Source: a virus
Taxonomy: Duplodnaviria > Heunggongvirae > Uroviricota > Caudoviricetes
Virus record (IMG/VR): IMGVR_UViG_3300029705_000018
Strand: one strand, 5' to 3'
DNA length: 64,000 bases
The translations under genes were made by a program, and so were the position numbers. Below are positions 23,185-44,892 of this stretch, in pieces (the first letter of the stretch is position 1; each line of letters starts with the position of its first letter). A model generated the notes under the pieces. That model was not told the origin of the DNA, did not search any database, and saw nothing but the letters and a program-made list of their open reading frames with translations.

Positions 23185-23554
23185 ATTGAAAGCTATTAGA
23201 CAATTTAGATATTATGGATCTGATTTGATTAATAATGAATTTGCCAAAATAAATAATTATCCAAATGATCCTTCTTTCCCAGAAAGATTGATCGGTGGTA
23301 ATATTTTTAATGAATATAGCGCAATCACAAAGCTTGGTATTCAAGGTCGTCCAGGTACAATGTTCTATTTGAATGATAGTAATTACCCAATCGTCATTGG
23401 CGAGACAGGTATTTATGAGATTGATTTAGAAGGTTATGGACAGATTTTCCGTATCAAATTTGACGGTCCTTCATTGAAGTGGTACGATGAAGATGGCAAA
23501 GGCGACCGTCTTCTAATTGACATTGTATTTGAAGGGTCAGGTGGAAGCGCATGA
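23185..23554 (+). CDS. Hypothetical protein of about 122 aa. TTG start after RBS AAAGGAGG. TGA stop.
   Basis: ORF 23162..23554. TTG 23185 is the start best spaced from the SD sequence. Confidence 0.55.
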
Positions 23555-25707: not shown

Positions 25708-25770
25708 TTTCTTTCTATTGAGAAATTAATATATATAAGTAAATAATTTTTAGGAAGGAGAGAGATTATA

Positions 25771-27258
25771 TTGGCAAGATACGTTAAGTTTATGCGAGGT
25801 ACTCCTACACAGTACGCCGCTTTGGTTGAAAAAGATATTGATACCCTGTATTTTATTGCTGAACCTACTGCTAGTGAAGGTTGCTTGTACTTAGGTAATA
25901 AGTTAATTGCTGGTAATGGCGAAAGCAATAGCGGAGATCTATCTGAATTACTAAGTTTAAACGACTTATCTGATGTCATTGTAAATTCCTTAGACTTATC
26001 TGATGCTTCCTTTCTAATCTACAATCAATCTCAAGGTGCTTGGGTAAATTGTAGTAAAGAAGCATTAGTATTTGTTGGCTCTTCTTCTTTGTCCGACGGT
26101 AAGGCTGGCCTAGTGCCAGCCCCCGCAAAGGGCGAAGAAAATATGTTCTTGCGTGCGGACGGCACTTGGGCCGTTCCTGAAGGCGCAGGAGCTGCTTCTA
26201 ATGCTGTTGTTTATCAAGTAACCGCAGAAGCAGATGAGAGCAAGGAGGCCGCAATCGTTCGCATCGTAAATGGTGCTGAATTGCATAAAAATGATGTAGC
26301 AATCGTAAGAGTCTTAATTGCTAATGATATGTATGAGCATACTGCTTATGTATATGACGGTACAAATTGGGCCGCCATGGATGGCAATTATAACGCTGAA
26401 AATGTTTACTTCAAAAGCGATTTTGTATTTACTGAAAATGTAGGTACAGTAAAAATTCCAGAGTCTGGTAATATTGAAGTTCAGGCCGCAGGTTTGAATG
26501 TTGCTGAGTTCTTTAATAAGTTGTTCTCTGAGGTAAAAGATCCAACAATTACCGATGTAGAGTTCACTGTCTCCTGGGATGGAACTAAGACTTCTTATGA
26601 AGTTGGCACTTCTGTAATTCCTAAGTATACTTCTACTTTCACTCCTGGTAGTTATGAATTTGGCCCTGAAAGTACTGGCGTAACTGTTAGTAGTTATAGT
26701 GTTGTTGATACCAATAACAATACTGCTAATACAGCTTCTGGCTCCATGCCAGAAATTACCATTACTGATGATACTAAGTATTCTGTAGCAATTACTGCTA
26801 CTTATACTGATGGTGTTAAAGCCTATAATAACTTACAGCAAGAAAGCGCAGAATATATCAAGGGTGGTTCCGTAACTAAGGCTACTAGTTCTATTATTGG
26901 TTATCGCGCTTCTTTTGTTGGTGTTGATAATGGTACTGGAGCTATTGACTCTGCTGTAATTAGAGGTTTAGCTACTTCTTGGAATTATAATGCCGGTAAG
27001 GTTATTACTGTTGACGCAGAAACTATTAATAATCCTACTCGTATTATTATTGCTATTCCTGCTTCTAATACTCGTAATGGTATTAAAGAAATTATTATGC
27101 CTGAATCTATGAATTATAATTGCACTGCTGACTATGTACAGCAAGATAATGTTATGGTTGAAGGTGCTAATGGTGCTACCGCTGCTGAGTATGAAGTTTG
27201 GGTTTATGCTCCAAGTAAAATGGGTGTTGATGAAGTCCATAAAATTACTTTGAACTAA
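25771..27258 (+). CDS. Tail fibre protein of 495 aa with the conserved phage tail-fibre N-terminus (MARYVKFMRGT...YAAL...TLYF). No TAG.
   Basis: Intact ORF. TTG start after RBS GGAAGGAGAG. Confidence 0.7.
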   Translation: MARYVKFMRGTPTQYAALVEKDIDTLYFIAEPTASEGCLYLGNKLIAGNGESNSGDLSELLSLNDLSDVIVNSLDLSDASFLIYNQSQGAWVNCSKEALVFVGSSSLSDGKAGLVPAPAKGEENMFLRADGTWAVPEGAGAASNAVVYQVTAEADESKEAAIVRIVNGAELHKNDVAIVRVLIANDMYEHTAYVYDGTNWAAMDGNYNAENVYFKSDFVFTENVGTVKIPESGNIEVQAAGLNVAEFFNKLFSEVKDPTITDVEFTVSWDGTKTSYEVGTSVIPKYTSTFTPGSYEFGPESTGVTVSSYSVVDTNNNTANTASGSMPEITITDDTKYSVAITATYTDGVKAYNNLQQESAEYIKGGSVTKATSSIIGYRASFVGVDNGTGAIDSAVIRGLATSWNYNAGKVITVDAETINNPTRIIIAIPASNTRNGIKEIIMPESMNYNCTADYVQQDNVMVEGANGATAAEYEVWVYAPSKMGVDEVHKITLN

Positions 27259-27272
27259 GGAGGAATTGAAGA

Positions 27273-28694
27273 ATGGCTGTAATTAGACAAGATTTTAATG
27301 TCATGTACTTGCCTGCTGCTATTCAGAGAAATAATCCAATTCCTCTGGATAGTACTGCCTTATGGTATGACTATGATTTGATGGCTGCTTATGCAGCTAG
27401 TGATCCTACTGCCTATGTAGGTCAGATTTTAAGCTTGGTTGTTGATGATGTAGCTAATGCTTATATTATTACTAACTTAGCTGGAGATTTAGAAAAAGTT
27501 GGCTCTGCTGTTGTTGCTGATAACAAAACTATTGTTTTGGATAATGGCGCAGTAGCTTTCAAAGATTTTGGTAAGCGTTATTATAAATATGACGCAGAAA
27601 CCGAAGAATATACTTTACAGGAAGTTGATGAAAACCATCCTTGGATTGCTGGTCTAGAACCAAAAGTAACTAGTGAAGCCGGTCAATTGGTATTAGGTTG
27701 GTTTGAGCCAAATTCAACTACATTGGAAGGTGTAAATAGTTCTTTAAGCACTTTACAGACTTCTGTAAGTGATTTACAGGGTACTGTTGAGAGCTTGGGT
27801 ATCCAGGTTTCTTTGAATGAGAAGGCTTTAGAGAATGTTTATACTAAAGAAGAGACCTTAGCTGAAATTGCTAAGGCTGGACATCTAGTATATAAAAAAG
27901 TTGATAGTTTAGATGACATTCAGGCGGATATTGATAATGAAGATGCTAATGTTTCTAATACTATTTACTTAGTTCCTGTTTTAGAAGGCTTAGTAAATGA
28001 CGTATATGATGAATATATGGTTATTGATGGTGGGATTGAAAGATTAGGTTCTTGGGAAGTTAATCTTGATAATTATGCCACCAAGGATGATCTTGATGGA
28101 AAAGTTGATAAAGTTGATGGCTATGGACTAATGTCTACAGCTCAGACTGCTAAATTAGCTACCATTGAAGAAGGCGCTCAAAAGAACGTTATCAATGAAG
28201 TTAGTGATGAGTTTGAAATTACTGATGGTAAGTTAAAACTTATCAGCTTACCTGATACTGCTAATATTGCAAATCATACAACTATTTTATCTTTACAGTC
28301 TGGTATTGACTCTAAAGTCACTATTGTCCCAGGCAAGAGCTTAGTTGATGATACTCTAATTGCAAAGTTAGAGGCAATGAATGCAGAGGGCGAGAAAAAT
28401 GTTATCAATGCGGTTGATGAAAATGAATTAGCAATTGATGAAAACCGCACTTTATCTATTGTTTCCGTAAGTGGTTCTAAGATTGCTGAATTGGATTTAA
28501 ATGAAGATTTTAAGAATTTGTCTAATAATGTAGATAGTTTATCTACTGACTTAGCTGCTTTAAATGCTTCTTTACAATCTTTGGATACAACTTTAACTGC
28601 TTATAAGATTGAAGTTTCTCAAACTTATTTAACTAAGTCTGAGTTTGAGGATCGTTTTGCTTGGCATGAGTTATCTGACTTTGTCACTACTTAA
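27273..28694 (+). CDS. Tail fibre or coiled-coil structural protein, 473 aa. No TAG.
   Basis: Intact ORF. RBS AAGGAGG. Confidence 0.7.
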   Translation: MAVIRQDFNVMYLPAAIQRNNPIPLDSTALWYDYDLMAAYAASDPTAYVGQILSLVVDDVANAYIITNLAGDLEKVGSAVVADNKTIVLDNGAVAFKDFGKRYYKYDAETEEYTLQEVDENHPWIAGLEPKVTSEAGQLVLGWFEPNSTTLEGVNSSLSTLQTSVSDLQGTVESLGIQVSLNEKALENVYTKEETLAEIAKAGHLVYKKVDSLDDIQADIDNEDANVSNTIYLVPVLEGLVNDVYDEYMVIDGGIERLGSWEVNLDNYATKDDLDGKVDKVDGYGLMSTAQTAKLATIEEGAQKNVINEVSDEFEITDGKLKLISLPDTANIANHTTILSLQSGIDSKVTIVPGKSLVDDTLIAKLEAMNAEGEKNVINAVDENELAIDENRTLSIVSVSGSKIAELDLNEDFKNLSNNVDSLSTDLAALNASLQSLDTTLTAYKIEVSQTYLTKSEFEDRFAWHELSDFVTT

Positions 28695-28714
28695 TATAAG
28701 GAGGATTACTAATA

Positions 28715-30844
28715 ATGGCTGATGAAAAATTAAGTTTATTATTTAGAAGAGGTACAATCGACCAGATTTTAGCTGGCGATAATATTGTTCCTGGTGCCGT
28801 TTCTTTCTGTACTGATGAGCCTGGTATTTATCTAGATTTAACTACTGATGAAGGCGGCGGTGTTGCTAAGAGAGTCCGTGTCGGTGATTTCATCTCTGTT
28901 GCTAGCTTTGACGATATCAAGGCTGCTGCCGCAGCTGCTACAGATCCTGACAAAGCTTTCTCTGAGCATTGCTTATACTACTCTATCCAAGAGAATGCTT
29001 TGATGAAGTACAAGAAGAGCGAAAAGACTTTTGTACTTATCAATGATTTAAGTGATGTAAATGCTGATATTGCGGCCCTTGATGTTAGAATTACTACTAA
29101 TGAGGGCTATATTAAGACCTTGCAAACTAATTTAGCTACTGAGACTACTCGTGCTACTAACGCTGAAGCCGCCCTAAGAAATCGTATTGATGCTTTAACT
29201 GGCGGTGGAGATGGCTCTACTGATTCTTTAACCCAATTAAGAGCAGATTTAAATGCTGAAATTGAGGCTAGAGAAGATGGCGATGAGGCTTTACAAGGCA
29301 GTATTACCACTCTAAGTGGACGTGTTAGTACCAATGAGGGTGATATCTCTAACTTAAAGACTTTGTTTGGTCAATTACCAGATGGAGTTGCTACTAACAT
29401 TGTTGATTATGTAAATGCTAAGGTTCTTGCAGAGCAGGAACGTGCAACTGGTATTGAAAATGGCTTACGTACCGATGTAGATAAGAATACTGGTAATATC
29501 AGTACCTTAACAACTGGTTTGACTGATGAAGCTGCTCGTGCTAAGGCTGCTGAGCAAGCTAATGCGACTGCTGCTGCTAATGCTCAGTCTAAGGCTGATG
29601 AAGCTGCCACAGCTGCCGCCAATGAAGCTTCTCGTGCTATTGGAGTTGAAGGCAAGTTAAGAACACTTATTACTAACCTAACTAATACTCACACTACTGA
29701 TAAGAATGCTTTAGAGCAGTCTATTACTGGTTTAACTAGTAGCTTAGCTGCCACTACTGGTATTGCTAACGATGCTAAGACTCAGTCTGACACTAATAAA
29801 GCTGGTTTAGCTCAAGAATTGGTAGACCGTGCCACTGGCGATCAAGCTAATGCTGATGCTATTGAAGCCTTGGATGGCGAATTGGCCGAAGAAGTCGAAA
29901 GACTGGAAGGTTTGATTGGTGAGGCTGGCTCTAGTGCTGATGCTGTTCGGTTGAATTTGAATAAAGAAATTGCAGACCGTCAAGCAGCTGATCAGGCTAA
30001 TGCTCAAGCTATCGCTAATGTCGATACTGCTTTAGAACAGGAAAAGACAGCTCGTACTAATGCCGATACTGAGTTAGACGGAAAGATTACTACTGTTTCT
30101 AATGGTTTGGCTGCAACTGATGGTAAAGTTTCTACTTTAGAAAATTGGAAGACAACTGCTTCAAAACAAATTAAAGATTTAGAGGATTGGGCAACTGATA
30201 CTGATGACACAATTCAGCAGGAAGCTCAAGCCCGTCAGACTGCTATCAATAATTTAAACAATGCTTTGACTTCTGAAACTGAGGCTCGTGAGAAGAGAGA
30301 CGAAGAGTTAACTAATTTAATTAGTGCTGAAACCAAGGATCGTGAAGATGCTATTGCCGATGCTTTAACTCAGGCTGCTAATACTGCTGACGAAAAAGAC
30401 CAGGCTTTGCTAGATCTGATTAATGAGAATATGGCTGCCGCAAACTCCATGTCCTTCAAGGGTAGCGTAACCGGTTATGACAGCTTACCTGCTTCTGGAA
30501 TCCAGGCTGGTGACACTTACGTTGTAACTACTGCTTTTAGTAACGCTGAAACTGAGCCTCAGATTGGTGACTTATTGGTTGCTAGAGATGATCAGGCAGA
30601 CGGTGCTACTTTAGCTGATGCTAATGCTAAGAAGGATTTCTTCATCTGGGTTAAGACTGGTTATTCTACTTTCAATGATCCTGAATTGGTTGTTGAAGAT
30701 GCCAAGATCAAGATGAAGAGCCATTTAGGTGAAGTTTTAGGAACTGTTTCTGTTATTTCTGCTAGCGAGAATATTGTAACTAATATTTCTGGCGAAGGAA
30801 AAGACTGCACCGTAAATGTTAGCTTCGTATGGGGAACATTCTAA
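28715..30844 (+). CDS. Ala-rich coiled-coil fibre protein (fibritin or tail-fibre shaft-like), 709 aa. No TAG.
   Basis: Intact ORF. RBS AAGGAGG. A terminator follows at 30908. Confidence 0.7.
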   Translation: MADEKLSLLFRRGTIDQILAGDNIVPGAVSFCTDEPGIYLDLTTDEGGGVAKRVRVGDFISVASFDDIKAAAAAATDPDKAFSEHCLYYSIQENALMKYKKSEKTFVLINDLSDVNADIAALDVRITTNEGYIKTLQTNLATETTRATNAEAALRNRIDALTGGGDGSTDSLTQLRADLNAEIEAREDGDEALQGSITTLSGRVSTNEGDISNLKTLFGQLPDGVATNIVDYVNAKVLAEQERATGIENGLRTDVDKNTGNISTLTTGLTDEAARAKAAEQANATAAANAQSKADEAATAAANEASRAIGVEGKLRTLITNLTNTHTTDKNALEQSITGLTSSLAATTGIANDAKTQSDTNKAGLAQELVDRATGDQANADAIEALDGELAEEVERLEGLIGEAGSSADAVRLNLNKEIADRQAADQANAQAIANVDTALEQEKTARTNADTELDGKITTVSNGLAATDGKVSTLENWKTTASKQIKDLEDWATDTDDTIQQEAQARQTAINNLNNALTSETEAREKRDEELTNLISAETKDREDAIADALTQAANTADEKDQALLDLINENMAAANSMSFKGSVTGYDSLPASGIQAGDTYVVTTAFSNAETEPQIGDLLVARDDQADGATLADANAKKDFFIWVKTGYSTFNDPELVVEDAKIKMKSHLGEVLGTVSVISASENIVTNISGEGKDCTVNVSFVWGTF

Positions 30845-30907
30845 TTCGGACAGAAAAGGACAATAAATAAGTTGTTATTTTCAAATCCTTATGAAGGATG
30901 ATTATAT

Positions 30908-30946
30908 GGAGAGGATAATATAATTATCCTCTCCATTTTTTTTATA
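30908..30946 (+). terminator. Rho-independent terminator
   Basis: ggagaggataatataattatcctctcc followed by attttttttat. Confidence 0.75.
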
Positions 30947-30969
30947 TTTGGATAGAAAGGAGAGCAACA

Positions 30970-33900
30970 ATGGTAGATCAAAAAAATGTTTTACAATCTA
31001 TTGGCGCCCGTGAGACCGGCAATGTTTTTAGACCTGTAAATTGTACTGAGCAAGACATGAAGAGAAAACGTGCTATTCCAGGCTACTTATACTTCACACA
31101 AGATTCTCATAAGATTTATCAAGGCTTAGGCTCTGGTGAATACCAGATGGTCGGCGGCAGTTCTAGTATTTTCTACGGCAAATATCCTATGACCGATGAT
31201 GAAAAATACGGAACTAATGTTTTCTTTACTTTCTCTATGACTGAACATATTGAAGGAGAAAATGTTCCTGCCTTAGATTCTTTGATTTTGAATATACCTG
31301 ATGGCGGTTTTTACAGAGTATTAAATGTTGATGGTGACGCCATTGCTGTAGAAAGACTGGCTATGTCTGGCGGCGGTGGAGATAACACTGGTCCTGGCTC
31401 TAATCAAAAAGGTAATATTACTATTGAATATTACAATGGCGCTGACGTTGATACTAATATCACTATCTTAAATGGTGTTGAGCATTGGATTGAGTTTACT
31501 ATTACTGCAACTGATGAAGTTGGAGATATCTTAACTGAAACTGGTACCGCAAGTTGGGCTATTAATGGTAAGACTTATACTCAATCTGTAACTACTGGCT
31601 ATAATAAATTCAGAGTTGATGAACTTTTACCCATGGCAAAAGATGGTAACTATACTCGTATTAACTTGATGGTCTATATGAATACTGGCGGTATCACTGA
31701 TAACTATGCTAGTAAGCAATGGAATATCCAAAAAGTTGATTTGCGTTTAGAGTGGCCTTTCACTTATTCTGAAGATGAATATCGTAAAGATTCAACCTTT
31801 ACTTTAGTATTCAAACCTTTTGGTGGTATTAATTGTACCGCTCATATTACTTTTGACAATGGTTCTACTCTAGGACAAGATTACTTCGAGGAAGATATTC
31901 CTGCTAATCGCGCAAACGGTAATGAATTTACTACTCAAGCAATGAAGAGTCTGTCTTATGGTGAGCATACTTGTTCTATTTATTTGGATGCCACTATCAA
32001 TGAAGATACTGGAAAGCCAATTACTGTTAGAACACAAGAAATTGTTCATAGAATCACTTTCACCGAAGGTGGTACTTCTACAATTTTAACCGTCCCATTT
32101 GATCAAAAGACTGCTACTCAATATGACACTATTGAGATTCCATTCTTAGTTTATGACCCAGATACAACTGAATGTAGTGTTACTTTCTCTGTTAATGATA
32201 ACGTAATTTCTACTCGTAGCTACAACAGAGATAAGCAATCTATTCCTTACACAATTACCACTCATGGTACTATTAAGTTAGCTTTAGAGTCTACTAATGG
32301 TGATACTAAGAGAGAATTCAATATCACTGTTGAACCTTTGGATTTGAACAGAGAAGAAGTTAGTGGTGCAGCTTTTAGCTTAAAAGCAATTAATTTCTCT
32401 GGTAATGATGAAGTTATTAACTGGGTTGGCGGTAGTGAAACTAAGCCTGTAAGATTGAACTTCTCTGATAATTTTGACTGGCGTAATGGCGGTCTAAAAT
32501 ATGAAGTTCTTGCAGATGGAAGCATTGAAAAGTTTATCTGTGTGCGCCAGGGTACTTGGATGGAAATTGACTATAAGTTATTTGAAAATTTCAAAACTGG
32601 TACTACCGGTGGTAAGAACTTTAAGTTCTGCTTCAAGGCAGCCAACTGTTATGATTATGAAGCTCCAGTTTTAAGCTGTATCCATTATAATTATAACGAA
32701 ATTGAATTGACTGAAGATACTTATAGAACTAATAAGTATTATATCCTTTCTGGCTCTGATTATATTATTTCTAGAAATCCATTTGATGAAACTGCTACTT
32801 ATTTTGAGAAAGTAAGAGTCGCTGAAATTGGTCTAGAATTTGATGCTCAGAAAGCAACTTTCTCTTCTGCTACTTATCCTAATTTCGCAACTCAGTATTG
32901 TGAAAACTCTTATATTGAAGTTGAAACTGAAATTTGGCCCAATGTAGGAGATAGACAGCAAGGTAGTAAAACCGTTTATGGTGATCGCTACTTAATGATT
33001 TGGGTTGATGGTGTTCCTGCAGGTGCTAAGCCTTACAGCCAAAACATGGCTTTACAGCAAAATGATGCTCAAACCATTCGCATTGGTTCTGATTCTTGTG
33101 ACGTCTATGTATATACCGCAAAAGCATATGAACGTAGATTAACAAATGATGAACATTTAAATAACTTCGTTATGGATGCTCCTAGCGTTAATAAGATGCT
33201 AGAGCGCCATCGCCGCAATGATATTATTGACTCCAGTACCGGCGAAATTTCTTATGAGCTTTTGGTGCAGAAAAATCCTGGATGCCATGCTTATTTGTAT
33301 GATATTCCAGAATTAACTACTAATAAAGAAGATAAGATTGATGGCTGTACTTATTATGAGTTGATTAATGAATATGATAATTTAGGTAAGCCATTTATGA
33401 GAGCAGATAAAGTTAGAACTTATGTTCAGGGCACTTCTTCTGCCGCTTATGGTGTTGCCGCATTTAACTTACGTTCTGATTTTACTAAAAAAGGTAAAAT
33501 TTATGATAAGAATGGTAATGAAATCCCTGGATGGAGACCTTCTGATGAAGATGAATATATTGACATTGCTTGTACTAAAGTTAATGTTGCTTCTTGTGAA
33601 AATGCCAATAACGTTGTAAACGCAGAATGGTATAACAGATTCCAGCCTTACTGGGATGCTCACAGAAGAAAAGGTACTCGTTATGACAGTGATGGTAATT
33701 TATTATACAATCCTATGCGTGACTGTATGAAATTCCACTCTGGCGTTGTCTTCTTGAGAGACCACAATACACAATTCAAATATTTAGATGACAATGGAGA
33801 TCCTAAGAGTGAAATCTATTTGGAGTCCAATGCATTTATCAACCCAACTAACCCTGATTGGGAAGCAAAATATGCCGCAGAACCTTATTTTAAGATGTAT

Positions 33901-36900
33901 TCTATCGGCAATATGGGTAATGATAAGAAGAATTTGAATGTTTTCCATGATACTACCAATCCACGTGCGGCCTGTGTCGAAGTTCTAGATAACCAGAACG
34001 CAGAACACTGGATGACTATTTTCAATGAAAAAGCTTTTGAAAAAGAAGTTGTAGGTCAGGACGAAGAAGGTAAAGATATTACCAAGGGTCCATACTATGA
34101 GTTCCGTTATGGTCTTGTAGAAAATGAAGACTTGTTAGAAAATGAGCAGGGCATTACCGTAGAACAACAAGAACAAGATTTCTTGAGACTGGCTGAATGG
34201 TTCGCAATGAATGATCCAAGTCCATATGATGAGTTGTCTCACCCCAATGGATATACTGGTGAAGAATTGCCTGAACCTGTAACCTTTACTGATGATTTTG
34301 TGTTTGAAGGCTTCGATCCTCCTGGATACGAAGGCCAGCCAAATCCAACTGAAATTAGTCTAAAGGGTCAGAAAATTAGTCGTTACAAAGGTACTTATAC
34401 CCACGACACTAAAGATTATCGTATCGCTAAAATGTTGTATGAATGTGAAGATTACTTGGTTATGGATTCTGTTGTATTCCATTATTTGTATATCTCTCGT
34501 CACACCATGGTTGATAACGTTGCTAAGAACACTTTCTGGAGCACCGAAGATGGATTCCACTGGGATCTAACTAAAAACTACGATAATGATACTTCTGATG
34601 GTAATGATAATACTGGTAACTTGACTTATACATATGGTCTAGAAGTCGGTGATATTAACCCCAATGGTAAAGATGTTTTCAATGCTTCTCCTTCCGTATG
34701 GTTGAATTTCATTCATGAATTAAGAGAGGCTCAGCAATATCTATTCCAGGAGTTGAGTAAGAAGGGTGCTTGGGATGCTGATGATTATCTAGCTGAATTT
34801 AAGGCTCACCAAGATATTATTCCCGAAATTTGCTGGATTCAGGACTATGAAAGAAAATATATTCGTCCTAGACGCTTAGGTCTTGATGAAACTACTTTCT
34901 TAAGTCGTCTAGAGGGTGGTCGTAAGACTCACCAGAGAAAGCAATATGAAACTTATCAAGAGTTCTATCTGAACTCTAAATATGTTGCAAGTACTGCTTT
35001 CACAGACAGTGCTGGTATCGAATTCCGTTTCAATAAAGACGGTGATTTCGCATTGCAACCAACTGACGTTCTTCCCATGACTTTCTATATTGATTGTTAT
35101 GGCACTATCCACTTAGGTGGTCAGAAGAGAACTTCTACTCGTATTAAGAGAGGTAATTATTATAATGCCCCTGTCGGTGAATTGATTTCTGCCGCAAGCG
35201 ATGCTACTTGCTATATTTATGGTGCAAGTATGATTCAAACAATTAAAGACTTGTATAAGTTGTATCCTGGTTATGCCAAGATGACTAATGCAAGTAAATT
35301 GCGTGAATTTGAAATCGGTTCTGATATAGAAGGTTATTATAACCCTCGTTTGAGCGAAGTTAGCGTTGGTACTAACGCAATGTTACAAAAATTCCAGGCT
35401 AGAAATGTCGGTAACCCCGAGAATATTTCTATCCTAAGCTTAACTAACGCAACTCAGCTAGAAACTGTTCTAATGAGTGGTAGTGCTTTCAAAGAATTGT
35501 CTTTGGCTCCTAACGCAACTACCAAAGAACTTGAATTAAACCCATTAGCAATCTTCTCTGCAACAAATCTTCTTGATTTGGAAACTGTTAGATTGGATGA
35601 TGGAATTTATGATTCAATTCAGCAGGCTTACATTAATAACTGCCCTGGCTTAGATGTTTACACTTATCGCTTCGCAAAAGCTCCTTCTTTAACTAACTAT
35701 CAATTTACCGATGTAAATTGGGTTATTAATGATGAGACTGAAGATGATTTCGTCTTAGATGCCGATAATAATGTTGTAGCCTTTGCCGCTCTTGAAAACT
35801 TAACTGATAATAATACTGGTCCTAGACTTGGTACTACTACTGTTACTGCTTTAAGCGGTACATTAACAGTTGATAAGGCTTGCGCTATTGATGAATATAA
35901 GATTTACAAAACTTATGCAAAAACTTATCCAAACTTGATTTTCAAGTACACTGATAAAGTTGGTGCTAATTTCAACCCCGCAGTTGAATTAATTTTCTTA
36001 ACCAATGAAAATTCTGAGGAACAATATTACAGAGTATTGGGTAGCGGTGATACCTCTGGAGAAAATGCTCACAGTATTGCTTATCTAACTTCCGCACAAG
36101 GTCCTTTAGGTTTTGCTATTGGTACTCCTCACAAGGAATCTACTTCTTCTCATGATTTTGCATTTACTGGCTATTGGATTCATAAAAAGGATAATGTAAT
36201 TACTAAGTATTACAATACAAAAGATTTGCCAGATGGAGCAGTTCCAGAAGCATCTGCAATCTCCTTTGAAGATATTACTCCAACTGAAAGTATGACATTC
36301 TATCCAGAGTATATTACTACTGATAGAGAGTACAAAGTTCGCTTCTGCGACTGGGCTGGTAATATTATCTTACAGAATGGTGAAGAGTATTGGCCTGTTC
36401 CTTATGGTAAGACTTACGTCGAGGCCGCAGGTCCAATGACTAATTTCCACTATCGTGATAATACAGGTCTACAAGATCATATGAGATGGGCATTCCAAGG
36501 TTGGTCTAAGAACCAATACAAGGATAAGGAAATTAAGAATCCTGTTTATGAAGATTTGGCAACAATGGTAGTTACTAATGATGTGACTTTACATGGTCAC
36601 TATTTAACTGAAGACTGCCGTGATGTCGCTTCTAAATTGGAATATTTCAATTTCAGCGAGCGTGGTAAGATCTCAATCGCTGAGGAATATCGTGAAACTT
36701 TACAAGGTAAAATTACTTTACCTAGTGAATATGATGGTATCCCTCTAACTCAGGTAAAAGACTTTAAGAATATGGCTCGTGTTACTCACGTATTCTTCTT
36801 GAGAACCAATACTTCTTATACAAGTATTTTCCAACAAGCCTTCGAAGGAGCTTTAGCTTTGCAATATGTTGATTTGCCTATTGGAATTACTCATATCGGA

Positions 36901-37440
36901 ACATATGCTTTCAAGAGTATCAAGAGTTTAACTACTGTTGATATGAAATCTAATGTTGAAGAAATTGGTAGCCAGGCATTCTATGAAACCAACATTAACT
37001 TAACTTCTTTACCTGCTAAACTAAAACTTCTAAAGTCTGGTGCATTCATGGATTGTCGTGAATTGACTTTGTCTGCTTTACCAGCTTCTTTAGAGACTAT
37101 CGAAAGCCACGTATTTTTCTTATGTCCTAAGATTAGTATTAATCAATTGGGTGGCGGTGACGCTAAATTGAGTTATATCGGTATGCAAGCTTTTGGCGGC
37201 GGTTCTGGCGCTAATGGCACTGTTACTGATATTTACTTCGGCTCAACGGTTAACTTCATTGGTGAAAACGCCTTCAAGGGATATGGTAAAAATGGTCGTG
37301 TAAGTACTATTAGCTTTGCTAAACAAAGTGTTGAAGATTATCTAATGACTGATACAGCCTACCATACTAGTATTTCTACTATGGGATTTGATAATCCTCC
37401 TTACACTGAAGTTTGGGATTGGAAAGGAGAAGGTTCTTAA
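30970..37440 (+). CDS. Giant 2,156-aa tail-associated or adhesin protein with a C-terminal BspA-type leucine-rich-repeat region (...IGSQAFYETNINLTSLP...). No TAG.
   Basis: Single uninterrupted ORF. RBS GAAAGGAGAG. Confidence 0.8.
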   Translation: MVDQKNVLQSIGARETGNVFRPVNCTEQDMKRKRAIPGYLYFTQDSHKIYQGLGSGEYQMVGGSSSIFYGKYPMTDDEKYGTNVFFTFSMTEHIEGENVPALDSLILNIPDGGFYRVLNVDGDAIAVERLAMSGGGGDNTGPGSNQKGNITIEYYNGADVDTNITILNGVEHWIEFTITATDEVGDILTETGTASWAINGKTYTQSVTTGYNKFRVDELLPMAKDGNYTRINLMVYMNTGGITDNYASKQWNIQKVDLRLEWPFTYSEDEYRKDSTFTLVFKPFGGINCTAHITFDNGSTLGQDYFEEDIPANRANGNEFTTQAMKSLSYGEHTCSIYLDATINEDTGKPITVRTQEIVHRITFTEGGTSTILTVPFDQKTATQYDTIEIPFLVYDPDTTECSVTFSVNDNVISTRSYNRDKQSIPYTITTHGTIKLALESTNGDTKREFNITVEPLDLNREEVSGAAFSLKAINFSGNDEVINWVGGSETKPVRLNFSDNFDWRNGGLKYEVLADGSIEKFICVRQGTWMEIDYKLFENFKTGTTGGKNFKFCFKAANCYDYEAPVLSCIHYNYNEIELTEDTYRTNKYYILSGSDYIISRNPFDETATYFEKVRVAEIGLEFDAQKATFSSATYPNFATQYCENSYIEVETEIWPNVGDRQQGSKTVYGDRYLMIWVDGVPAGAKPYSQNMALQQNDAQTIRIGSDSCDVYVYTAKAYERRLTNDEHLNNFVMDAPSVNKMLERHRRNDIIDSSTGEISYELLVQKNPGCHAYLYDIPELTTNKEDKIDGCTYYELINEYDNLGKPFMRADKVRTYVQGTSSAAYGVAAFNLRSDFTKKGKIYDKNGNEIPGWRPSDEDEYIDIACTKVNVASCENANNVVNAEWYNRFQPYWDAHRRKGTRYDSDGNLLYNPMRDCMKFHSGVVFLRDHNTQFKYLDDNGDPKSEIYLESNAFINPTNPDWEAKYAAEPYFKMYSIGNMGNDKKNLNVFHDTTNPRAACVEVLDNQNAEHWMTIFNEKAFEKEVVGQDEEGKDITKGPYYEFRYGLVENEDLLENEQGITVEQQEQDFLRLAEWFAMNDPSPYDELSHPNGYTGEELPEPVTFTDDFVFEGFDPPGYEGQPNPTEISLKGQKISRYKGTYTHDTKDYRIAKMLYECEDYLVMDSVVFHYLYISRHTMVDNVAKNTFWSTEDGFHWDLTKNYDNDTSDGNDNTGNLTYTYGLEVGDINPNGKDVFNASPSVWLNFIHELREAQQYLFQELSKKGAWDADDYLAEFKAHQDIIPEICWIQDYERKYIRPRRLGLDETTFLSRLEGGRKTHQRKQYETYQEFYLNSKYVASTAFTDSAGIEFRFNKDGDFALQPTDVLPMTFYIDCYGTIHLGGQKRTSTRIKRGNYYNAPVGELISAASDATCYIYGASMIQTIKDLYKLYPGYAKMTNASKLREFEIGSDIEGYYNPRLSEVSVGTNAMLQKFQARNVGNPENISILSLTNATQLETVLMSGSAFKELSLAPNATTKELELNPLAIFSATNLLDLETVRLDDGIYDSIQQAYINNCPGLDVYTYRFAKAPSLTNYQFTDVNWVINDETEDDFVLDADNNVVAFAALENLTDNNTGPRLGTTTVTALSGTLTVDKACAIDEYKIYKTYAKTYPNLIFKYTDKVGANFNPAVELIFLTNENSEEQYYRVLGSGDTSGENAHSIAYLTSAQGPLGFAIGTPHKESTSSHDFAFTGYWIHKKDNVITKYYNTKDLPDGAVPEASAISFEDITPTESMTFYPEYITTDREYKVRFCDWAGNIILQNGEEYWPVPYGKTYVEAAGPMTNFHYRDNTGLQDHMRWAFQGWSKNQYKDKEIKNPVYEDLATMVVTNDVTLHGHYLTEDCRDVASKLEYFNFSERGKISIAEEYRETLQGKITLPSEYDGIPLTQVKDFKNMARVTHVFFLRTNTSYTSIFQQAFEGALALQYVDLPIGITHIGTYAFKSIKSLTTVDMKSNVEEIGSQAFYETNINLTSLPAKLKLLKSGAFMDCRELTLSALPASLETIESHVFFLCPKISINQLGGGDAKLSYIGMQAFGGGSGANGTVTDIYFGSTVNFIGENAFKGYGKNGRVSTISFAKQSVEDYLMTDTAYHTSISTMGFDNPPYTEVWDWKGEGS

Positions 37441-37652
37441 TGACTAAAGATAGAAAATACAGATACCTTGGCCGCAATGGTATTTTAGATACTAAGGTCC
37501 TTCTAGATGGTATCAATCATATCAATATCGTAACTATCAATGCTGATCCCGGCAAGATTTTAACTAATGGTGAGCGTACTCAGTACAGCGTCACTGTTGA
37601 AGAGGCCGAGGAACATAAGTGGAGAGAAATTACGGACAATACCAAAAAATAA
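37440..37652 (+). CDS. Small hypothetical protein of about 70 aa
   Basis: ATG overlaps the upstream TAA (TAATG). ORF-track entry 37413..37652. Confidence 0.45.
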   Translation: MTKDRKYRYLGRNGILDTKVLLDGINHINIVTINADPGKILTNGERTQYSVTVEEAEEHKWREITDNTKK

Positions 37653-37728
37653 GGTTATTTGATTTTTCAGTTCTAGGGAAGGGAAATTCCTTCCCTAGAA
37701 CAATATTATAAAGAAAGGAAGATATAAC

Positions 37729-39741
37729 GTGATTACAGTCTATAATAAAGATTATAAAGACCAATATACCGTTCTATTCCAAGACGCATATAACGTTTTA
37801 TTGGATATGCAGGCTAAAGATCCTCTTGGTGTAAAGATTAATCAGTCTGTTTTGGATAAAGGCAAAATCAGTTCTCTTGAAGAGTATTTTGCTCATATTG
37901 GTTATTTAGCAGATTATCACACTGAAAATATTAGAAATAATCCACCTTCTAATGTTGCATATCAAAACTCTGCTAAGTTCTTGATGCTTCCTATGGATGA
38001 AAAATACGATGTCAAGTCTGGCTGTTTTTACATTGACCTAAATACTAGAAATATTCAGGTTCCTGATATTTATAGTAAATATGGTGTTAGTGTTACTGGT
38101 GATCAGTTAGCCGAGACTTTGATGTTTAAGGTTCCTCGCTATTTCGATTATACTGACTTGGCTTCTACTGAAATTTATGTTCAGTGGACTAACCCAGCAG
38201 GAGACGAAGGTGCTTCTCGTATTGTCTTAGTTGACTTTGAAGCAGAAGAAGGTTATCTATTATTTGGTTGGCCTTTGACCAGTAAGGTTACTGTTGAAGG
38301 TAAAAATCCTTTGAAGTTCTCTGTTCGTTTCTTCGTAAGAAATGAAGAGAAAGAAATTCAGTACAGCTTAAATACTTTGGCTAGTTCTGTTATGATTAAG
38401 CAAGCTCTATATACTCATTTCAATGCTGACCTAGACATTGATGATCCATCTTTGTTGTTTGCGGCCGCAGTTGAAAATGGCGTTGACTCCAACATGACTC
38501 TACCTCAGATTCCTGTCTTCTTCTATGATTGGAAATTGGGTAATGACGAAGGAAAAGCTTTCTTAAAGAATGATGCAATTAAGCTATATGCTAGCGGTGC
38601 CACTGCTGATGCAGGTCAGTTGTGCTACAAGTGGTATTATACTCCTCGATTCATCGAAAATAATGTCGCTGTAACTAAAGATACTGAAGAAGTTTTCAAG
38701 GCTTACGCTGATGTAGATACTATCTTCAAGCCCACAAATGATACTGAAAAAGAAGCTGGCAAGACTTATTATGTTGAAGAAATCGAAGCTGAAACTGGCA
38801 ATCAGATTTATACTGTTTTCCTAGGCGATGCTTTTGAAGAGCCAGAAGAGGGAGAAGCTGCTCCTGTTTATTATGAGCAGGTAAGTGTTTATACCATTTT
38901 GGCTGTTGATGATGATGCTGAGGATTTGGGTGCTTCTACTGCGCTAGCACCTAATAAGAGATATTGGCCTCACGTCACCGGTGAATACAAGCTAACTTTG
39001 AACAATCAAGTTGGTAGTAGCAAATCTGCAGAGAGCGTTGATTCTTTGAAGTGCGTAATTCCTTGTGTTGAAAAAGTTGAGTTCACCGCAGATTTACCTA
39101 AGAACAAAGTTCTATCTACTATTGGCGAAGGCGAAGAGACTGTTAGCCAGGCTATTTTAACTGTTACTGTTGATGCAAATGACGGTGCTGAAAAGAGCTA
39201 TGTATGGTATGAAGCTGCTTCTTCTGACGCTGAATATGTTGAAGTTCCCAATGCTTCTAATGCTAGTATGACTGCTACTCAGCCAGGCTGGTATAAAGTT
39301 AAGGCTATCGGTACTTTGAACAGAGAGAGTATGTGGAAAGAAAGTTCTGAATGTAAGGTTACTTATCCTGCTGAAGCTCCTGAAATCGTCAAGTATCTAG
39401 TTGATGGTATCGAGTATCCTATTACAGATGATGACCCAACTTTAGAGAATGTTCCTGGCTTGAATACTCCTATTACCTTCAAGATTGAAATTGAAGAAAT
39501 GAATGAGTTCCAGACTGACGGTGTCACTTACAAGTGGTTCCGCAATACTCCTAACCAGAATGGTACTCCTATTAAGGATTCTGATCTAGATATTATTAGT
39601 GTAAATGGCAGTGAAATTACTGTTAAGCTATTAGCTAATAATGACTTGCCTGTTAATATTGCCTTCTATTACTGTGAAATCACTAATACTCTAGCAGGAG
39701 AAGAAAAGAAAACTACTTCTAAGGTATTCCAGATTTCTTAA
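37729..39741 (+). CDS. Structural or tail protein, 670 aa. GTG start. No TAG.
   Basis: Intact ORF. RBS AAAGGAAG. Confidence 0.7.
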   Translation: MITVYNKDYKDQYTVLFQDAYNVLLDMQAKDPLGVKINQSVLDKGKISSLEEYFAHIGYLADYHTENIRNNPPSNVAYQNSAKFLMLPMDEKYDVKSGCFYIDLNTRNIQVPDIYSKYGVSVTGDQLAETLMFKVPRYFDYTDLASTEIYVQWTNPAGDEGASRIVLVDFEAEEGYLLFGWPLTSKVTVEGKNPLKFSVRFFVRNEEKEIQYSLNTLASSVMIKQALYTHFNADLDIDDPSLLFAAAVENGVDSNMTLPQIPVFFYDWKLGNDEGKAFLKNDAIKLYASGATADAGQLCYKWYYTPRFIENNVAVTKDTEEVFKAYADVDTIFKPTNDTEKEAGKTYYVEEIEAETGNQIYTVFLGDAFEEPEEGEAAPVYYEQVSVYTILAVDDDAEDLGASTALAPNKRYWPHVTGEYKLTLNNQVGSSKSAESVDSLKCVIPCVEKVEFTADLPKNKVLSTIGEGEETVSQAILTVTVDANDGAEKSYVWYEAASSDAEYVEVPNASNASMTATQPGWYKVKAIGTLNRESMWKESSECKVTYPAEAPEIVKYLVDGIEYPITDDDPTLENVPGLNTPITFKIEIEEMNEFQTDGVTYKWFRNTPNQNGTPIKDSDLDIISVNGSEITVKLLANNDLPVNIAFYYCEITNTLAGEEKKTTSKVFQIS

Positions 39742-39759
39742 TAAAGGAGGTCAATAATT

Positions 39760-40407
39760 ATGTCACAGTTAAGTCAAACTGCTATTGACAAATTATATGA
39801 AATCCAAAGAAGTAATCCTCCAAAGATGGCTTCCATTCCATATGCGGAGGATTACATTGAAGTTGATTGGCGTACTCGCTCAATTGGAGAACGTGATATC
39901 CTAAGCACTGCTCGTGACCATAAATCCGAAAATTTATACTTTATCATGGATAGATATTGGGATTATATGGACTTGTCTACCACCACCTGTGTTATTTCTT
40001 ATAAGACTTATCCCGCAGACCCCCAGAAGCAAGGTGTGACTGGTTTATATGCCGTTCCATATTACGACATTTATACTCATAAAGCTACTCCTGGCACTTT
40101 GGAAAAGGATAAGATGGTTATTCCATGGTGTATTGATGGACGAGTAACTCAAGACGAAGCAGAAGTAGAATATGCCATTCGTTTTTATCGTGTTGATGCT
40201 GATGGAAAGAAAATCCTCTATAATATCAGCACCATGCCAAATGTTGGCAAAGTCCTATATGGACTAAACGTTCAGCCAAACGGCCTTGAAGACGCCGGAG
40301 ATCTAGCTGGTGATTATGATATTGCTAGTAGTATGTATGAACATTTTACTGACGAAATCAGAAAATTAAATCAGCAAGATATTTTTTGGATTGAATTTGT
40401 TTCATAA
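39760..40407 (+). CDS. Hypothetical structural protein, 215 aa
   Basis: Intact ORF with RBS AAGGAGG. A terminator follows at 40415. Confidence 0.7.
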   Translation: MSQLSQTAIDKLYEIQRSNPPKMASIPYAEDYIEVDWRTRSIGERDILSTARDHKSENLYFIMDRYWDYMDLSTTTCVISYKTYPADPQKQGVTGLYAVPYYDIYTHKATPGTLEKDKMVIPWCIDGRVTQDEAEVEYAIRFYRVDADGKKILYNISTMPNVGKVLYGLNVQPNGLEDAGDLAGDYDIASSMYEHFTDEIRKLNQQDIFWIEFVS

Positions 40408-40414
40408 CTTTTAT

Positions 40415-40452
40415 GGGTGGAAGTAATTTTTACTTCCACCCATTTTTTTTGT
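40415..40452 (+). terminator. Rho-independent terminator. A second weaker hairpin with a T-run follows at about 40479-40530.
   Basis: gggtggaagtaatttttacttccaccc followed by attttttttg. Confidence 0.75.
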
Positions 40453-42664: not shown

Positions 42665-42696
42665 TAAAATCTAGGTGAGAAAGGAGAAAATATACA

Positions 42697-44871: not shown

Positions 44872-44892
44872 TAAAAAAAAGGGGGATATAAT

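What the first reader, a model, noticed from the sequence alone, without database searches (positions are those of the whole stretch)
25771..40407. A 14.6-kb tail-fibre module with no TAG codons, embedded between heavily recoded genes
Six consecutive genes of about 4,700 codons contain zero in-frame TAGs. They include the 2,156-aa BspA-LRR protein. The flanking structural genes carry about 1 TAG per 90-300 codons; the tape-measure gene has 36. To the eye this block is also less AT-rich (about 38-40 % GC against about 31-33 %). I did not compute either figure. Tail-fibre and host-range modules are commonly exchanged between phages. One explanation is recent acquisition from a phage that uses the standard code. 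An alternative is that these genes must be translated before suppressor activity is available.
Basis: partly seen in the sequence, partly recalled or inferred. Interest (0 to 1): 0.75.

Follow-up and report, generated by a model that had tools for sequence, protein, structure and literature searches.

The report
TAG-free tail-fibre block in recoded phage
In a gut phage that reads the stop codon TAG as glutamine in most tail genes, a 14.6-kb run of putative tail-fibre genes has no TAG at all, and comparison with relatives suggests that selection keeps it that way rather than a recent import of foreign DNA.

Summary
Seven consecutive + strand ORFs (25771-40407, 4,755 codons) have no in-frame TAG. 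Neighbouring tail genes carry 76 TAG in 9,724 codons, so about 37 were expected (Poisson P = 7e-17). Base composition does not explain it. The matching silent C/T choice in leucine codons is as T-rich inside the block as outside, and out-of-frame TAG is not depleted.

The 'recent import from a standard-code phage' reading is not supported. The block is syntenic and orthologous in every relative I fetched. Its synonymous divergence from the closest relative matches that of the flanks. All nine close lineages examined are themselves recoded.

The block is TAG-poor in 19 of 19 recoded lineages (median 0.35 of the upstream density). It is nearly TAG-free in three further lineages, one separated from the window by dS of 0.7-0.95. 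Over that distance no conserved CAG became TAG (20 unchanged, 0 changed). Equivalent leucine sites mostly changed (29 changed, 9 unchanged; p = 1e-8).

The best reading is long-term selection keeping this module readable in the standard code. Why is inferred, not shown; independence from the suppressor is my preferred reason. This is a same-strand variant of the known early/late code partition. Interest is moderate.

The parts
1882..11271 (+). Tape-measure gene (3,129 aa) with 36 in-frame TAG. It serves as a reference for heavy recoding.
   Evidence: PHROG tape-measure families, E = 2e-59. TAG counts.
23551..25707 (+). gH, the upstream flank gene: a 718-aa coiled-coil, repeat-rich tail protein with 5 TAG and late-type codon usage.
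   Evidence: TAG is present in its homologs in all relatives.
25708..25770 (+). Intergenic region between gH and b1, strongly conserved, holding the ribosome-binding site. There is no terminator here, so b1-b3 are probably co-transcribed with the TAG-bearing genes upstream.
   Evidence: Alignment of 9 lineages. Terminator scan.
25771..27258 (+). b1, 495 aa from the TTG start, 0 TAG. A conserved core protein of the module with tandem Ig-like beta-sandwich domains in its C-terminal half.
   Evidence: More than 1,000 homologs. AlphaFold model with pLDDT 79.5. Only weak Ig-like fold matches. Pfam Phage_tail_C hit below the cut-off.
27273..28694 (+). b2, 473 aa, 0 TAG.
   Evidence: Homologs carry 0-3 TAG.
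28715..30844 (+). b3, 709 aa, 0 TAG. Hypervariable: dN is 0.14-0.39 against relatives.
   Evidence: Weak coiled-coil match to P22 tail needle gp26.
30906..30936 (+). Intrinsic-terminator-like hairpin (14-bp stem followed by a T run), immediately upstream of the b4 ribosome-binding site.
   Evidence: sequence read.
30970..37440 (+). b4, a 2,156-aa BspA-type leucine-rich-repeat protein. It has 0 TAG, 26 CAG and 43 CAA.
   Evidence: Pfam LRR_5, E = 1e-43. Counts. Homologs carry 0-12 TAG.
37440..37652 (+). Small 70-aa ORF with 0 TAG, conserved in relatives.
   Evidence: Called in L175, L178 and L179. Translation.
37807..39741 (+). b5, 644 aa, 0 TAG. It is nearly TAG-free in relatives too: 1 TAG against 31 CAG, pooled.
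39760..40407 (+). b6, 215 aa, 0 TAG.
40413..40443 (+). Strong intrinsic-terminator-like hairpin that closes the block. The recombination breakpoint between the window and L175 lies just after it, at about 40564.
40559..44871 (+). gP (701 aa, 5 TAG) and gQ (724 aa, 3 TAG, Listeria-Bacteroides repeat domains). These downstream flank genes return to TAG-rich, late-type codon usage.
   Evidence: They are TAG-rich in relatives too.

Best explanation
The block is a conserved putative tail-fibre or adhesin module of a family of roughly 90-210-kb gut siphovirus-like phages that read TAG as glutamine. The module comprises b1-b6 and includes the giant BspA-LRR protein.

In the neighbouring tail genes, TAG and CAG interchange freely as synonymous glutamine codons, and T-favouring mutation pressure makes TAG the commoner of the two. 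In this module, TAG is removed by purifying selection. The module therefore stays 'dual-coded': it gives the same proteins under the host's standard code and under the phage's code 15. In the window's lineage and at least three others the purge is essentially complete. In other lineages it is relaxed but still detectable.

My preferred reason, which is inferred and not shown, is that these proteins must be made efficiently without depending on suppressor-tRNA decoding of TAG. That could mean earlier synthesis than the TAG-gated genes, or avoiding the yield loss that TAG read-through causes. This matches their codon usage, which lies closer to the TAG-free early genes than to the TAG-rich late genes.

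The module also moves as a cassette between related recoded genomes by homologous recombination.
For: Shown:
1. Zero TAG in 4,755 codons against about 37 expected, with composition controls passed.
2. TAG means glutamine. Residues opposite TAG in relatives are Gln in 28% of cases against a 2.6% background.
3. In the flanks, C/T changes at xAG codons are as frequent as at the leucine control sites: window vs L011, 10/13 against 20/29.
4. In the block they are suppressed (xAG against leucine sites):
   - window vs L175: 1/46 against 22/55;
   - window vs L011: 5/29 against 27/49;
   - window vs L261: 0 changed and 20 kept, against 29 changed and 9 kept, p = 1e-8, at dS 0.7-0.95.
5. L175, L260 and L261 are recoded genomes with 1 TAG each in about 4,100, 1,680 and 3,770 block codons.
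6. In 19 of 19 recoded lineages the region from b1 onward has fewer TAG than the upstream tail genes. The median ratio is 0.35.
7. TAG positions in the block are less often shared between lineages than those in the flanks (11% against 29%), so they are younger.
8. An independent distant recoded lineage, L041, has 0 TAG in its 2,195-codon b4 homolog. Its standard-code sister L188 is equally distant in block and flank.
9. Codon-usage log-likelihood excluding Gln codons is -0.05 to -0.006 for b1 and b3-b6. TAG-rich late genes score +0.05 to +0.16 and the larger early genes about -0.03 to -0.16. CAG:CAA is 74:73 in the block, 74:83 in early genes and 43:232 upstream.
10. The window and L175 share the block at 92% nt up to position 40564 and only 84% beyond it.

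From the literature: Borges et al. (bioRxiv 10.1101/2021.08.26.457843) propose that selection enriches or depletes recoded stops in specific gene families. Their model has TAG-free genes translated by host machinery before the code switch.
Against: - L011, L013, L005, L009 and L014 carry 10-18 TAG in the same genes. The module can therefore function while depending on the suppressor, and the constraint is lineage-dependent for reasons I cannot explain.
- No terminator or clear promoter separates TAG-bearing gH from b1. b1-b3 are probably co-transcribed with TAG-gated genes, which weakens a simple 'expressed earlier' model.
- A terminator sits directly before b4, which suggests read-through or antitermination control rather than early expression.
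- gS has early-like codon usage yet is TAG-dense. b2 has late-like usage yet no TAG. The link between codon usage and TAG is therefore imperfect.
- There are no expression data, and no suppressor tRNA lies in the window.
- The lineages compared are not phylogenetically independent.
Confidence: 0.5

Rival explanations
1. One-off recent acquisition. The window's phage swapped in a tail-fibre module from a phage that uses the standard code, too recently for TAG to have accumulated.
For: - The block has higher GC3 and distinct codon usage, with sharp boundaries at gH|b1 and b6|gP.
- Tail genes in this family are clearly mosaic.
- Standard-code relatives of b1 exist at 36-44% identity or below.
Against: - The block is syntenic and orthologous in all relatives.
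- dS to the closest relative L011 is the same in block and flanks: 0.34-0.46 against 0.48-0.53.
- b3 has a different history from b4-b6 (dS 0.44 against 0.2-0.3 to L175), yet it is also TAG-free.
- The nearest homologs all sit in recoded genomes.
- There is no megablast match in 50,697 phage records.
Confidence: 0.07
2. Recurrent influx. In the whole family the fibre module is repeatedly replaced or patched by recombination with standard-code relatives. This resets TAG to zero. TAG then accumulates neutrally, as a form of amelioration.
For: - The block is TAG-poor family-wide and has a GC3 excess. The two measures correlate (Spearman rho = -0.51, p = 0.025).
- Block TAG positions are younger than flank ones.
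- Recombination of the block as a unit is visible between the window and L175.
- Code type is interleaved in the wider family, for example recoded L041 and standard-code L188.
Against: - It needs independent very recent imports into the window, L175, L260 and L261. Their blocks differ by dS 0.2-0.95, yet each has 0-1 TAG.
- It therefore needs a standard-code reservoir as diverse as the recoded clade. None of the nine close lineages examined uses the standard code.
- A single import followed by neutral drift is rejected by the leucine control (1/46 against 22/55).
- gP evolves just as fast and is probably also a host-interaction gene, yet it is TAG-rich with complete turnover of TAG positions.
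Confidence: 0.2
3. Selection against TAG exists, but for a different reason. Suppression is incomplete, and truncated fibre or adhesin fragments that still dock on the baseplate would poison assembly. TAG is therefore costlier in these genes than elsewhere.
For: It rests on the same selection evidence. The proteins are long and multi-domain, with conserved N-terminal parts and variable distal parts.
Against: - The tape measure is the most TAG-dense large gene (36 TAG), although truncated forms should be just as harmful.
- TAG positions in relatives' b4 are spread evenly and show no bias toward the N-terminus.
- gP and gQ, which are also likely distal tail proteins, are TAG-rich.
Confidence: 0.12
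4. Chance, base composition or a DNA-level bias produces the gap. Candidates include lower AT pressure, avoidance of the TAG/CTAG motif, or transcription-linked C-to-T mutation.
For: The block is about 4 GC points richer than the upstream region, and its GC3 is higher.
Against: - Poisson P = 7e-17.
- The leucine TTG/CTG control shows equal or stronger T preference in the block (0.93 against 0.85).
- Out-of-frame TAG is not depleted.
- gP-gQ have nearly the same total GC (36.5%) but carry TAG.
Confidence: 0.01

Closest known systems
Phages with TAG-to-Gln (code 15) recoding restricted to part of the genome: crAss-like, Lak, Garnet and Topaz clades (Ivanova 2014; Borges et al., bioRxiv 10.1101/2021.08.26.457843; Mgcod, bioRxiv 10.1101/2022.06.29.495998)
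   Same: - In-frame TAG aligned with Gln in structural genes.
- The replication genes on the opposite strand have almost no in-frame TAG, the only candidate being the RecJ-like ORF (TAG at 62667-62669).
- TAA is the dominant stop codon.
- TAG-free genes are 'dual-coded'.
- The literature proposes gene-family-specific enrichment and depletion of recoded stops.
   Different: - In those descriptions the code boundary coincides with the switch of coding strand between early and late genes. Here a 14.6-kb dual-coded island lies on the same strand, nested inside the recoded tail module and flanked by TAG-rich tail genes on both sides.
- Its TAG-free state is documented here by substitution-rate controls across diverged lineages.
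phAss-1 / proposed Phassvirus group (PMC10607447; GenBank OQ749652)
   Same: - Human-gut phage reading TAG as Gln.
- Tape measure of about 3,150 aa, against 3,129 here.
- DNA polymerase III alpha-type polymerase.
- Predicted host in Clostridia.
- In my re-analysis of OQ749652, TAG-rich tail genes have low GC3. The 538-aa and 429-aa ORFs have 0 TAG and GC3 of 0.46-0.54. By their lengths I take them to be the paper's 538-aa 'structural tail protein' and 429-aa 'receptor-binding tail fibre protein/pectate lyase'.
   Different: - The relationship is distant. The tape-measure N-terminus is 31% identical.
- phAss-1 was not among the three phage records matching b1 in a tblastn search.
- The window's polymerase is closest to SPbeta-like YorL, at 39%.
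- The fibre module content is different (pectate-lyase fibre there, BspA-LRR here).
Mosaic exchange of tail-fibre or host-range modules between phages
   Same: - Gene-by-gene changes in relatedness: b4 is 27% identical to L005 but 64% to L008.
- The block is shared at 92% with L175 while the rest of that genome is 84%.
- Window 45.5-48.3 kb is 92-99% identical to L179, a lineage whose block is only about 70% identical.
   Different: The exchange seen here is among recoded relatives. It does not by itself explain the absence of TAG, because the block stays TAG-free across dS of 0.2-0.95 inside recoded genomes.

Membership tests
Code-15 (TAG to Gln) recoded phage | In-frame TAG inside conserved genes that give full-length homologous proteins only if TAG is read through | tested here: met
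   Coding length rises from 48 kb to 67 kb when TAG is read as sense. The 3,129-aa tape measure has 36 TAG. Public gene calls on the same contigs give full-length products.
Code-15 (TAG to Gln) recoded phage | TAG aligns with glutamine in homologs | tested here: met
   243 of 878 residues opposite TAG are Gln (28%, against a 2.6% background). The next most frequent are Glu and Lys.
Code-15 (TAG to Gln) recoded phage | A phage-encoded suppressor tRNA with anticodon CTA | tested here: inconclusive
   No tRNA was found in the 64-kb window or in 18 related loci. These cover only the tail and part of the replication region, so the rest of the genome was not seen.
Early/late code partition as described for crAss-like phages (Mgcod, Borges) | Standard-code-compatible genes are the early genes, and the code boundary coincides with the switch of coding strand | tested here: not met
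   The minus-strand replication genes are TAG-free, as expected. The block, however, is TAG-free on the same strand as recoded tail genes and lies between them.
Horizontally acquired island from a foreign (standard-code) genome | Absent from, or non-orthologous in, close relatives; phylogenetic distance differs from the flanks | tested here: not met
   The gene order is the same in all relatives. dS to L011 is 0.34-0.46 in b1, b2 and b4 against 0.48-0.53 in gF and gG.
Horizontally acquired island from a foreign (standard-code) genome | Atypical composition or codon usage with sharp boundaries | tested here: met
   GC3 is 0.22-0.30 against 0.16-0.22. The codon-usage score flips at gH|b1 and at b6|gP. 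The same usage is shared with the phage's own early genes, so this feature is not diagnostic of foreign origin.
BspA-like leucine-rich-repeat surface or adhesin proteins (Pfam LRR_5) | Significant match to the LRR_5 repeat model | tested here: met
   b4 residues 1951-2075 and two further stretches match, with E = 9.7e-44 and 148.8 bits against a cut-off of 27.7.
Phage tail fibre or receptor-binding module | Recognisable fibre or receptor-binding domains, or a demonstrated place in the virion | tested here: inconclusive
   - The position downstream of the tape measure and baseplate-like genes fits.
- The b1 Phage_tail_C hit is below the cut-off (17.4 bits against 23.7).
- The AlphaFold model of b1 gives only Ig-like matches, with no E-value of 0.001 or better.
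- b3 has a weak match to tail needle gp26 (E = 0.0024).
- PHROG hits are all 'unknown function'.
phAss-1-like phages (proposed Phassvirus) | Close sequence relationship of signature proteins (TerL, capsid, tape measure, polymerase) | tested here: not met
   The tape-measure N-terminus is only 30.8% identical to OQ749652. The polymerase's best hits are SPbeta-like phages at 39%. TerL and capsid genes lie outside the window.

The most novel reading that the evidence does not exclude
Inside the virion-gene module of a recoded phage family, selection maintains a 'code-neutral' host-recognition cassette that the unmodified host translation system can read. The phage would then make its distal tail or adhesin proteins outside the TAG-gated translational programme. 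The same cassette could also work after transfer into either standard-code or recoded relatives. Lineages appear to switch between a strict regime (0-1 TAG) and a relaxed one (10-18 TAG).
Probability: 0.3. Interest if true: 0.65.

Novelty: new variant of a known kind. Interest (0 to 1): 0.45.

Why it matters
Stop-codon recoding in phages is thought to act as a translational timer that holds back late and lysis proteins. This case shows that the partition is finer than 'early strand against late strand'. A specific set of structural genes is exempt from the gate, and the exemption has been maintained over long divergence.

That gives a concrete handle for testing the timer model. Do TAG-free tail genes appear earlier, or at higher yield, than their TAG-bearing neighbours in the same operons?

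It also supplies a simple internal statistic for measuring selection on a reassigned codon in any recoded genome: the rate of CAG/TAG exchange compared with CTR/TTR exchange.

There is a practical consequence too. Window-based genetic-code callers and gene finders can mis-segment such genomes, and a TAG-free island should not be taken as evidence of foreign origin.

Tried and rejected
- Megablast of the block against 50,697 phage records gave no match.
- gH as a query in IMG/VR gave no relatives.
- IMG/VR, GTDB and JGI scans with a b1 profile returned only distant relatives, at most 47% identity. They were useful for the family-wide trend but held no close donors.
- A search among 259 fetched loci for standard-code loci with close block homologs found nothing above 76% identity for any gene, and nothing close to the window's clade.
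- Parsimony polarisation of third-position changes (AT-to-GC against GC-to-AT) showed only a weak effect that was not specific to the block. At this divergence the method is also biased.
- A comparison of the gH|b1 intergenic region found no promoter difference between TAG-free and TAG-bearing lineages; the region is almost identical in all of them.
- The sigma-70-type promoter scan gave no excess over shuffled sequence.
- PDB sequence searches for b1, b3 and b5, and a Foldseek search with the b1 model, gave no informative match.
- No tRNA was found in the window or in 18 related loci.
- I rejected a DNA-motif avoidance explanation because out-of-frame TAG is normal.
- I rejected expression-level or copy-number selection as the cause. 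The putative tail protein gA and the tape measure are the most TAG-dense genes, and Borges et al. report that tail-tube genes are preferentially recoded.


Full report
WHAT THE WINDOW IS

Reading TAG as sense raises the length of long ORFs from 48 kb to 67 kb. The + strand from 1 to 48335 carries tail-type genes. They include a 3,129-aa tape-measure protein (PHROG E = 2e-59) with 36 in-frame TAG.

The minus strand from 48382 to 64000 carries replication and nucleotide-metabolism genes. These include a DnaE/PolIII-alpha polymerase, NrdD/NrdG, a Dda-like helicase, RecJ, dUTPase and guanylate kinase. They have essentially no TAG.

The polymerase is 39% identical to SPbeta-like YorL. The tape-measure N-terminus is 31% identical to that of the published TAG-recoded gut phage phAss-1 (PMC10607447). 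Codons aligned opposite TAG in relatives are glutamine in 28% of cases, against a 2.6% background. TAG is therefore read as Gln (code 15). No tRNA gene lies in the window.

THE OBSERVATION

With only TAA and TGA as stops, the block contains b1 to b6 plus one small ORF:
- b1 25771-27258.
- b2 27273-28694.
- b3 28715-30844.
- b4 30970-37440, 2,156 aa, Pfam LRR_5, E = 1e-43.
- b5 37807-39741.
- b6 39760-40407.

Together they make 4,755 codons with no in-frame TAG. TAG-bearing neighbours carry 76 TAG in 9,724 codons, so 37 were expected (Poisson P = 7e-17). Without the tape measure, 29 were expected (P = 3e-13). The TAG-free run is 4,915 codons; the next longest is 921.

Fourteen contigs carry an identical b1. 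Four of them, from different samples, were fetched and show the same arrangement, so it is not an assembly chimera.

COMPOSITION DOES NOT EXPLAIN IT

- Out-of-frame TAG is as common in the block as upstream.
- The closest neutral analogue of CAG/TAG is the silent first-position C/T choice in leucine codons. TTG/(TTG+CTG) is 0.93 in the block and 0.85 upstream. TAG/(TAG+CAG) is 0 in the block and 0.61 in the flanks (Fisher p = 8e-22).
The block is 37.5% GC and upstream is 33.8%, but gP-gQ just downstream is 36.5% and the early region is 38.7%.
- The real contrast is in codon usage. GC3 is 0.22-0.30 in the block and 0.16-0.22 in TAG-rich genes.
- A codon-usage score that excludes Gln codons flips sharply at gH|b1 and at b6|gP. 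b1 and b3-b6 lie close to the early genes; b2 does not.
- Gln codon use in the block (CAG 74, CAA 73, TAG 0) is almost the same as in the early genes (74, 83, 0). Upstream late genes are very different (43, 232, 68).

RELATIVES

b1 has more than 1,000 full-length homologs on contigs of up to 208 kb. I fetched the genomic context of the following lineages, listed by b1 identity to the window unless stated:
- L260, 92%.
- L011, 89%.
- L013 and L178, 88%.
- L261, 83%.
- L005, 80%.
- L008 and L179, 66%.
- L009, 57%.
- L014, 47%.
- L175, found through b5 at 97% identity.

All have the same gene order (gD-gE-gF-gG-gH-b1-b2-b3-b4-small ORF-b5-b6-gP-gQ). All are recoded.

TAG per 1,000 codons, upstream against block:

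| Lineage | Upstream | Block |
|---|---|---|
| Window | 6.9 | 0 |
| L011 | 6.3 | 2.7 |
| L013 | 9.1 | 3.5 |
| L005 | 10.1 | 3.7 |
| L008 | 9.6 | 2.1 |
| L009 | 9.0 | 4.7 |
| L014 | 10.7 | 4.2 |

L175, L260 and L261 each have only 1 TAG, in about 4,100, 1,680 and 3,770 block codons. gP and gQ are TAG-rich wherever they were fetched: the window, L175, L178 and L179.

I added distant recoded relatives from IMG/VR, GTDB and JGI. In 19 of 19 lineages the region from b1 onward has fewer TAG than the region upstream. The median ratio is 0.35. The depletion correlates with a local GC3 excess (rho = -0.51, p = 0.025). The window is therefore the extreme of a family-wide pattern and not a singular event.

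AGAINST A RECENT IMPORT

- Synonymous divergence from the closest relative L011 is 0.48 and 0.53 in flanks gF and gG. It is 0.34, 0.41 and 0.46 in b1, b2 and b4. Only gH and b3 stand out, at about 0.65.
- b3 has a different history from b4-b6 (dS to L175 is 0.44 against 0.2-0.3), yet it is equally TAG-free.
- No close standard-code carrier of the block was found. The nearest standard-code relatives are at 44% b1 identity or below.
- The distant recoded lineage L041 also has 0 TAG in its 2,195-codon b4 homolog. Its standard-code sister L188 is equally distant in flank and block, at 56-67% aa identity.

FOR PURIFYING SELECTION

In the flanks, TAG and CAG behave as neutral synonyms. Between the window and L011, 10 of 13 xAG sites that hold a C in either genome differ. 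The leucine control gives 20 of 29.

In the block the same change is suppressed:

| Comparison | xAG sites changed | Leucine control sites changed |
|---|---|---|
| Window vs L011 | 5/29 (all five are TAG in L011) | 27/49 |
| Window vs L175 | 1/46 | 22/55 |
| Window vs L261 (dS 0.7-0.95) | 0 changed, 20 conserved CAG | 29 changed, 9 unchanged (p = 1e-8) |

Both partners in these comparisons are recoded genomes. A single import followed by neutral drift is therefore rejected. The influx model would need separate, very recent imports into at least four lineages, from a diverse standard-code reservoir that was not seen in any of the nine close contexts.

TAG positions in the block are also younger. 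Only 11% are shared between lineages, against 29% in the flanks.

By the outgroup L261, the nearly TAG-free state is ancestral for this clade. L011 and L013 each gained about 10-15 TAG independently. Over the same time the window gained about 9 TAG in gF-gH but none in the block. I cannot explain this split between strict and relaxed lineages. Their gH|b1 intergenic regions are virtually identical.

RECOMBINATION

The family is mosaic:
- The window and L175 align at 92% from at least 27813 to 40564, the start of gP. They are unalignable for 0.9 kb after that, and then align at 84%. The block's downstream edge is therefore a recombination breakpoint, and it lies just after the strong terminator at 40413-40443.
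- The window's gS-gW region is 92-99% identical to L179. gS and gU reach 98-99%, with dS of 0.02-0.03. L179's block is only about 70% identical to the window's.
- The module therefore travels as a cassette, but among recoded genomes.

MECHANISM

Shown: TAG is selectively excluded from this module, so its proteins are the same under code 11 and code 15.

Inferred: the benefit is independence from the suppressor, in timing or in yield. This agrees with the early-like codon usage. It also agrees with the model of Borges et al., in which host machinery translates TAG-free genes before the code switch, and with their proposal that selection enriches or depletes recoded stops by gene family.

One related point. 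An exact sigma-70-type motif, TTGACT-N14-TGATATAAT, precedes both replication operons (50970 and 58562, minus strand) and tail operons (1159 and 11334, plus strand). If it is functional, tail transcription is not obviously delayed, and TAG gating at translation would matter more.

Against a simple timing model:
- No terminator separates gH from b1.
- A terminator sits directly upstream of b4.
- Relaxed lineages show that the module can work with TAG.

A dominant-negative truncation model is less likely. The tape measure is the most TAG-dense large gene, and TAG positions in relatives' b4 are evenly spread.

COMPARISON WITH WHAT IS KNOWN

Partial recoding with dual-coded early genes is established. 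The sources are Ivanova 2014, cited from memory; Borges et al., bioRxiv 10.1101/2021.08.26.457843; and Mgcod, bioRxiv 10.1101/2022.06.29.495998. In those reports the code boundary follows the strand switch.

Here the dual-coded island is on the late strand, inside the tail module. In phAss-1 itself, my recount shows the same association. TAG-rich tail genes have GC3 of 0.20-0.27. The 538-aa and 429-aa ORFs have 0 TAG and GC3 of 0.46-0.54. By their lengths I take them to be the tail and receptor-binding proteins named in the paper. That paper did not discuss this.

I therefore rate the finding as a new variant of a known kind, of moderate interest.

LIMITS

- Gene starts are inferred.
- 'Tail fibre' is a positional and domain-based inference.
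- Lineages are metagenomic and not independent.
- There are no expression data.
- The rest of the genome, including any suppressor tRNA, was not available.

Noticed in passing
window 1159-1187 (+), 11334-11362 (+), 50970-50998 (-), 58562-58590 (-): There are four exact copies of a consensus extended -10 promoter motif, TTGACT-N14-TGATATAAT. The two minus-strand copies are identical over all 29 nt. They sit upstream of gB/tape measure, gD, the gene after NrdG, and the DnaE polymerase. Replication and tail operons therefore seem to share the same host-type promoter.
   Followed up: partly
window 45555-48335 compared with L179 17615-20400: This stretch is 92-99% nt identical to a lineage (L008/L179) whose fibre block is only about 70% identical. 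gS and gU are at 98-99% (dS 0.02-0.03); gW is at dS 0.15. It looks like a recent recombination tract at the 3' end of the late region.
   Followed up: partly
window 61038-62837 (-), TAG at 62667-62669: The RecJ-like exonuclease ORF extends 185 codons upstream of its first ATG. The DHH domain spans residues 70-214, and a TTG start follows an AAAGGAGG site. Read this way, this replication-module gene contains one in-frame TAG at codon 57. A start at the TTG just after the TAG cannot be excluded.
   Followed up: partly
window 46000-46254 (+): An unlisted 84-codon ORF lies between gS and gT, with one in-frame TAG at 46189. It is conserved as an 81-84-aa gene in L175, L178 and L179, with 1-2 TAG.
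   Followed up: partly
window 46276-46992 (+) gT; also gR 44893-45300 and gU 47012-47434: gT has 8 CAG and 0 TAG here, and 18 CAG and 0 TAG pooled over two relatives. gR and gU are also TAG-free in all lineages seen. These look like further gene families that avoid TAG in the late strand. The neighbouring gS is TAG-dense (3 TAG in 144 codons).
   Followed up: partly
window 25708-25770 and the aligned regions of L005, L008, L011, L013, L260, L261: The 63-nt gH|b1 intergenic region and the first codons of b1 are almost invariant. This holds even between lineages whose flanking proteins are only 50-65% identical, which suggests a conserved regulatory element.
   Followed up: partly
L263 (phAss-1, OQ749652) 5261-45950: In the published recoded phage phAss-1 the tape measure has 110 TAG in 3,150 codons. 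A run of genes at 35615-39648, plus the 538-aa and 429-aa ORFs at 42820-45950, have 0 TAG and GC3 of 0.43-0.58. By their lengths, the two ORFs appear to be the tail and receptor-binding proteins named in the paper. The TAG-rich, low-GC3 against TAG-free, high-GC3 patchwork is the same as in the window.
   Followed up: partly
window 40559-42664 (gP) compared with L175 12762-14867: gP has 5 TAG in the window and 5 in L175, none at the same position. Its N-terminal 0.9 kb cannot be aligned between the two. It is a fast-evolving tail gene with complete turnover of TAG positions, in contrast with the adjacent TAG-free block.
   Followed up: partly
window 37670-37699 (+): A 12-bp perfect hairpin (TTCTAGGGAAGG GAAA... 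CCTTCCCTAGAA) with no T run lies between the 70-aa ORF and b5. Its function is unknown.
   Followed up: no
window 10732-10866 (tape measure residues about 2951-2995): [quoted passage not shown] This hints at a cell-wall-degrading domain in the tape measure.
   Followed up: no
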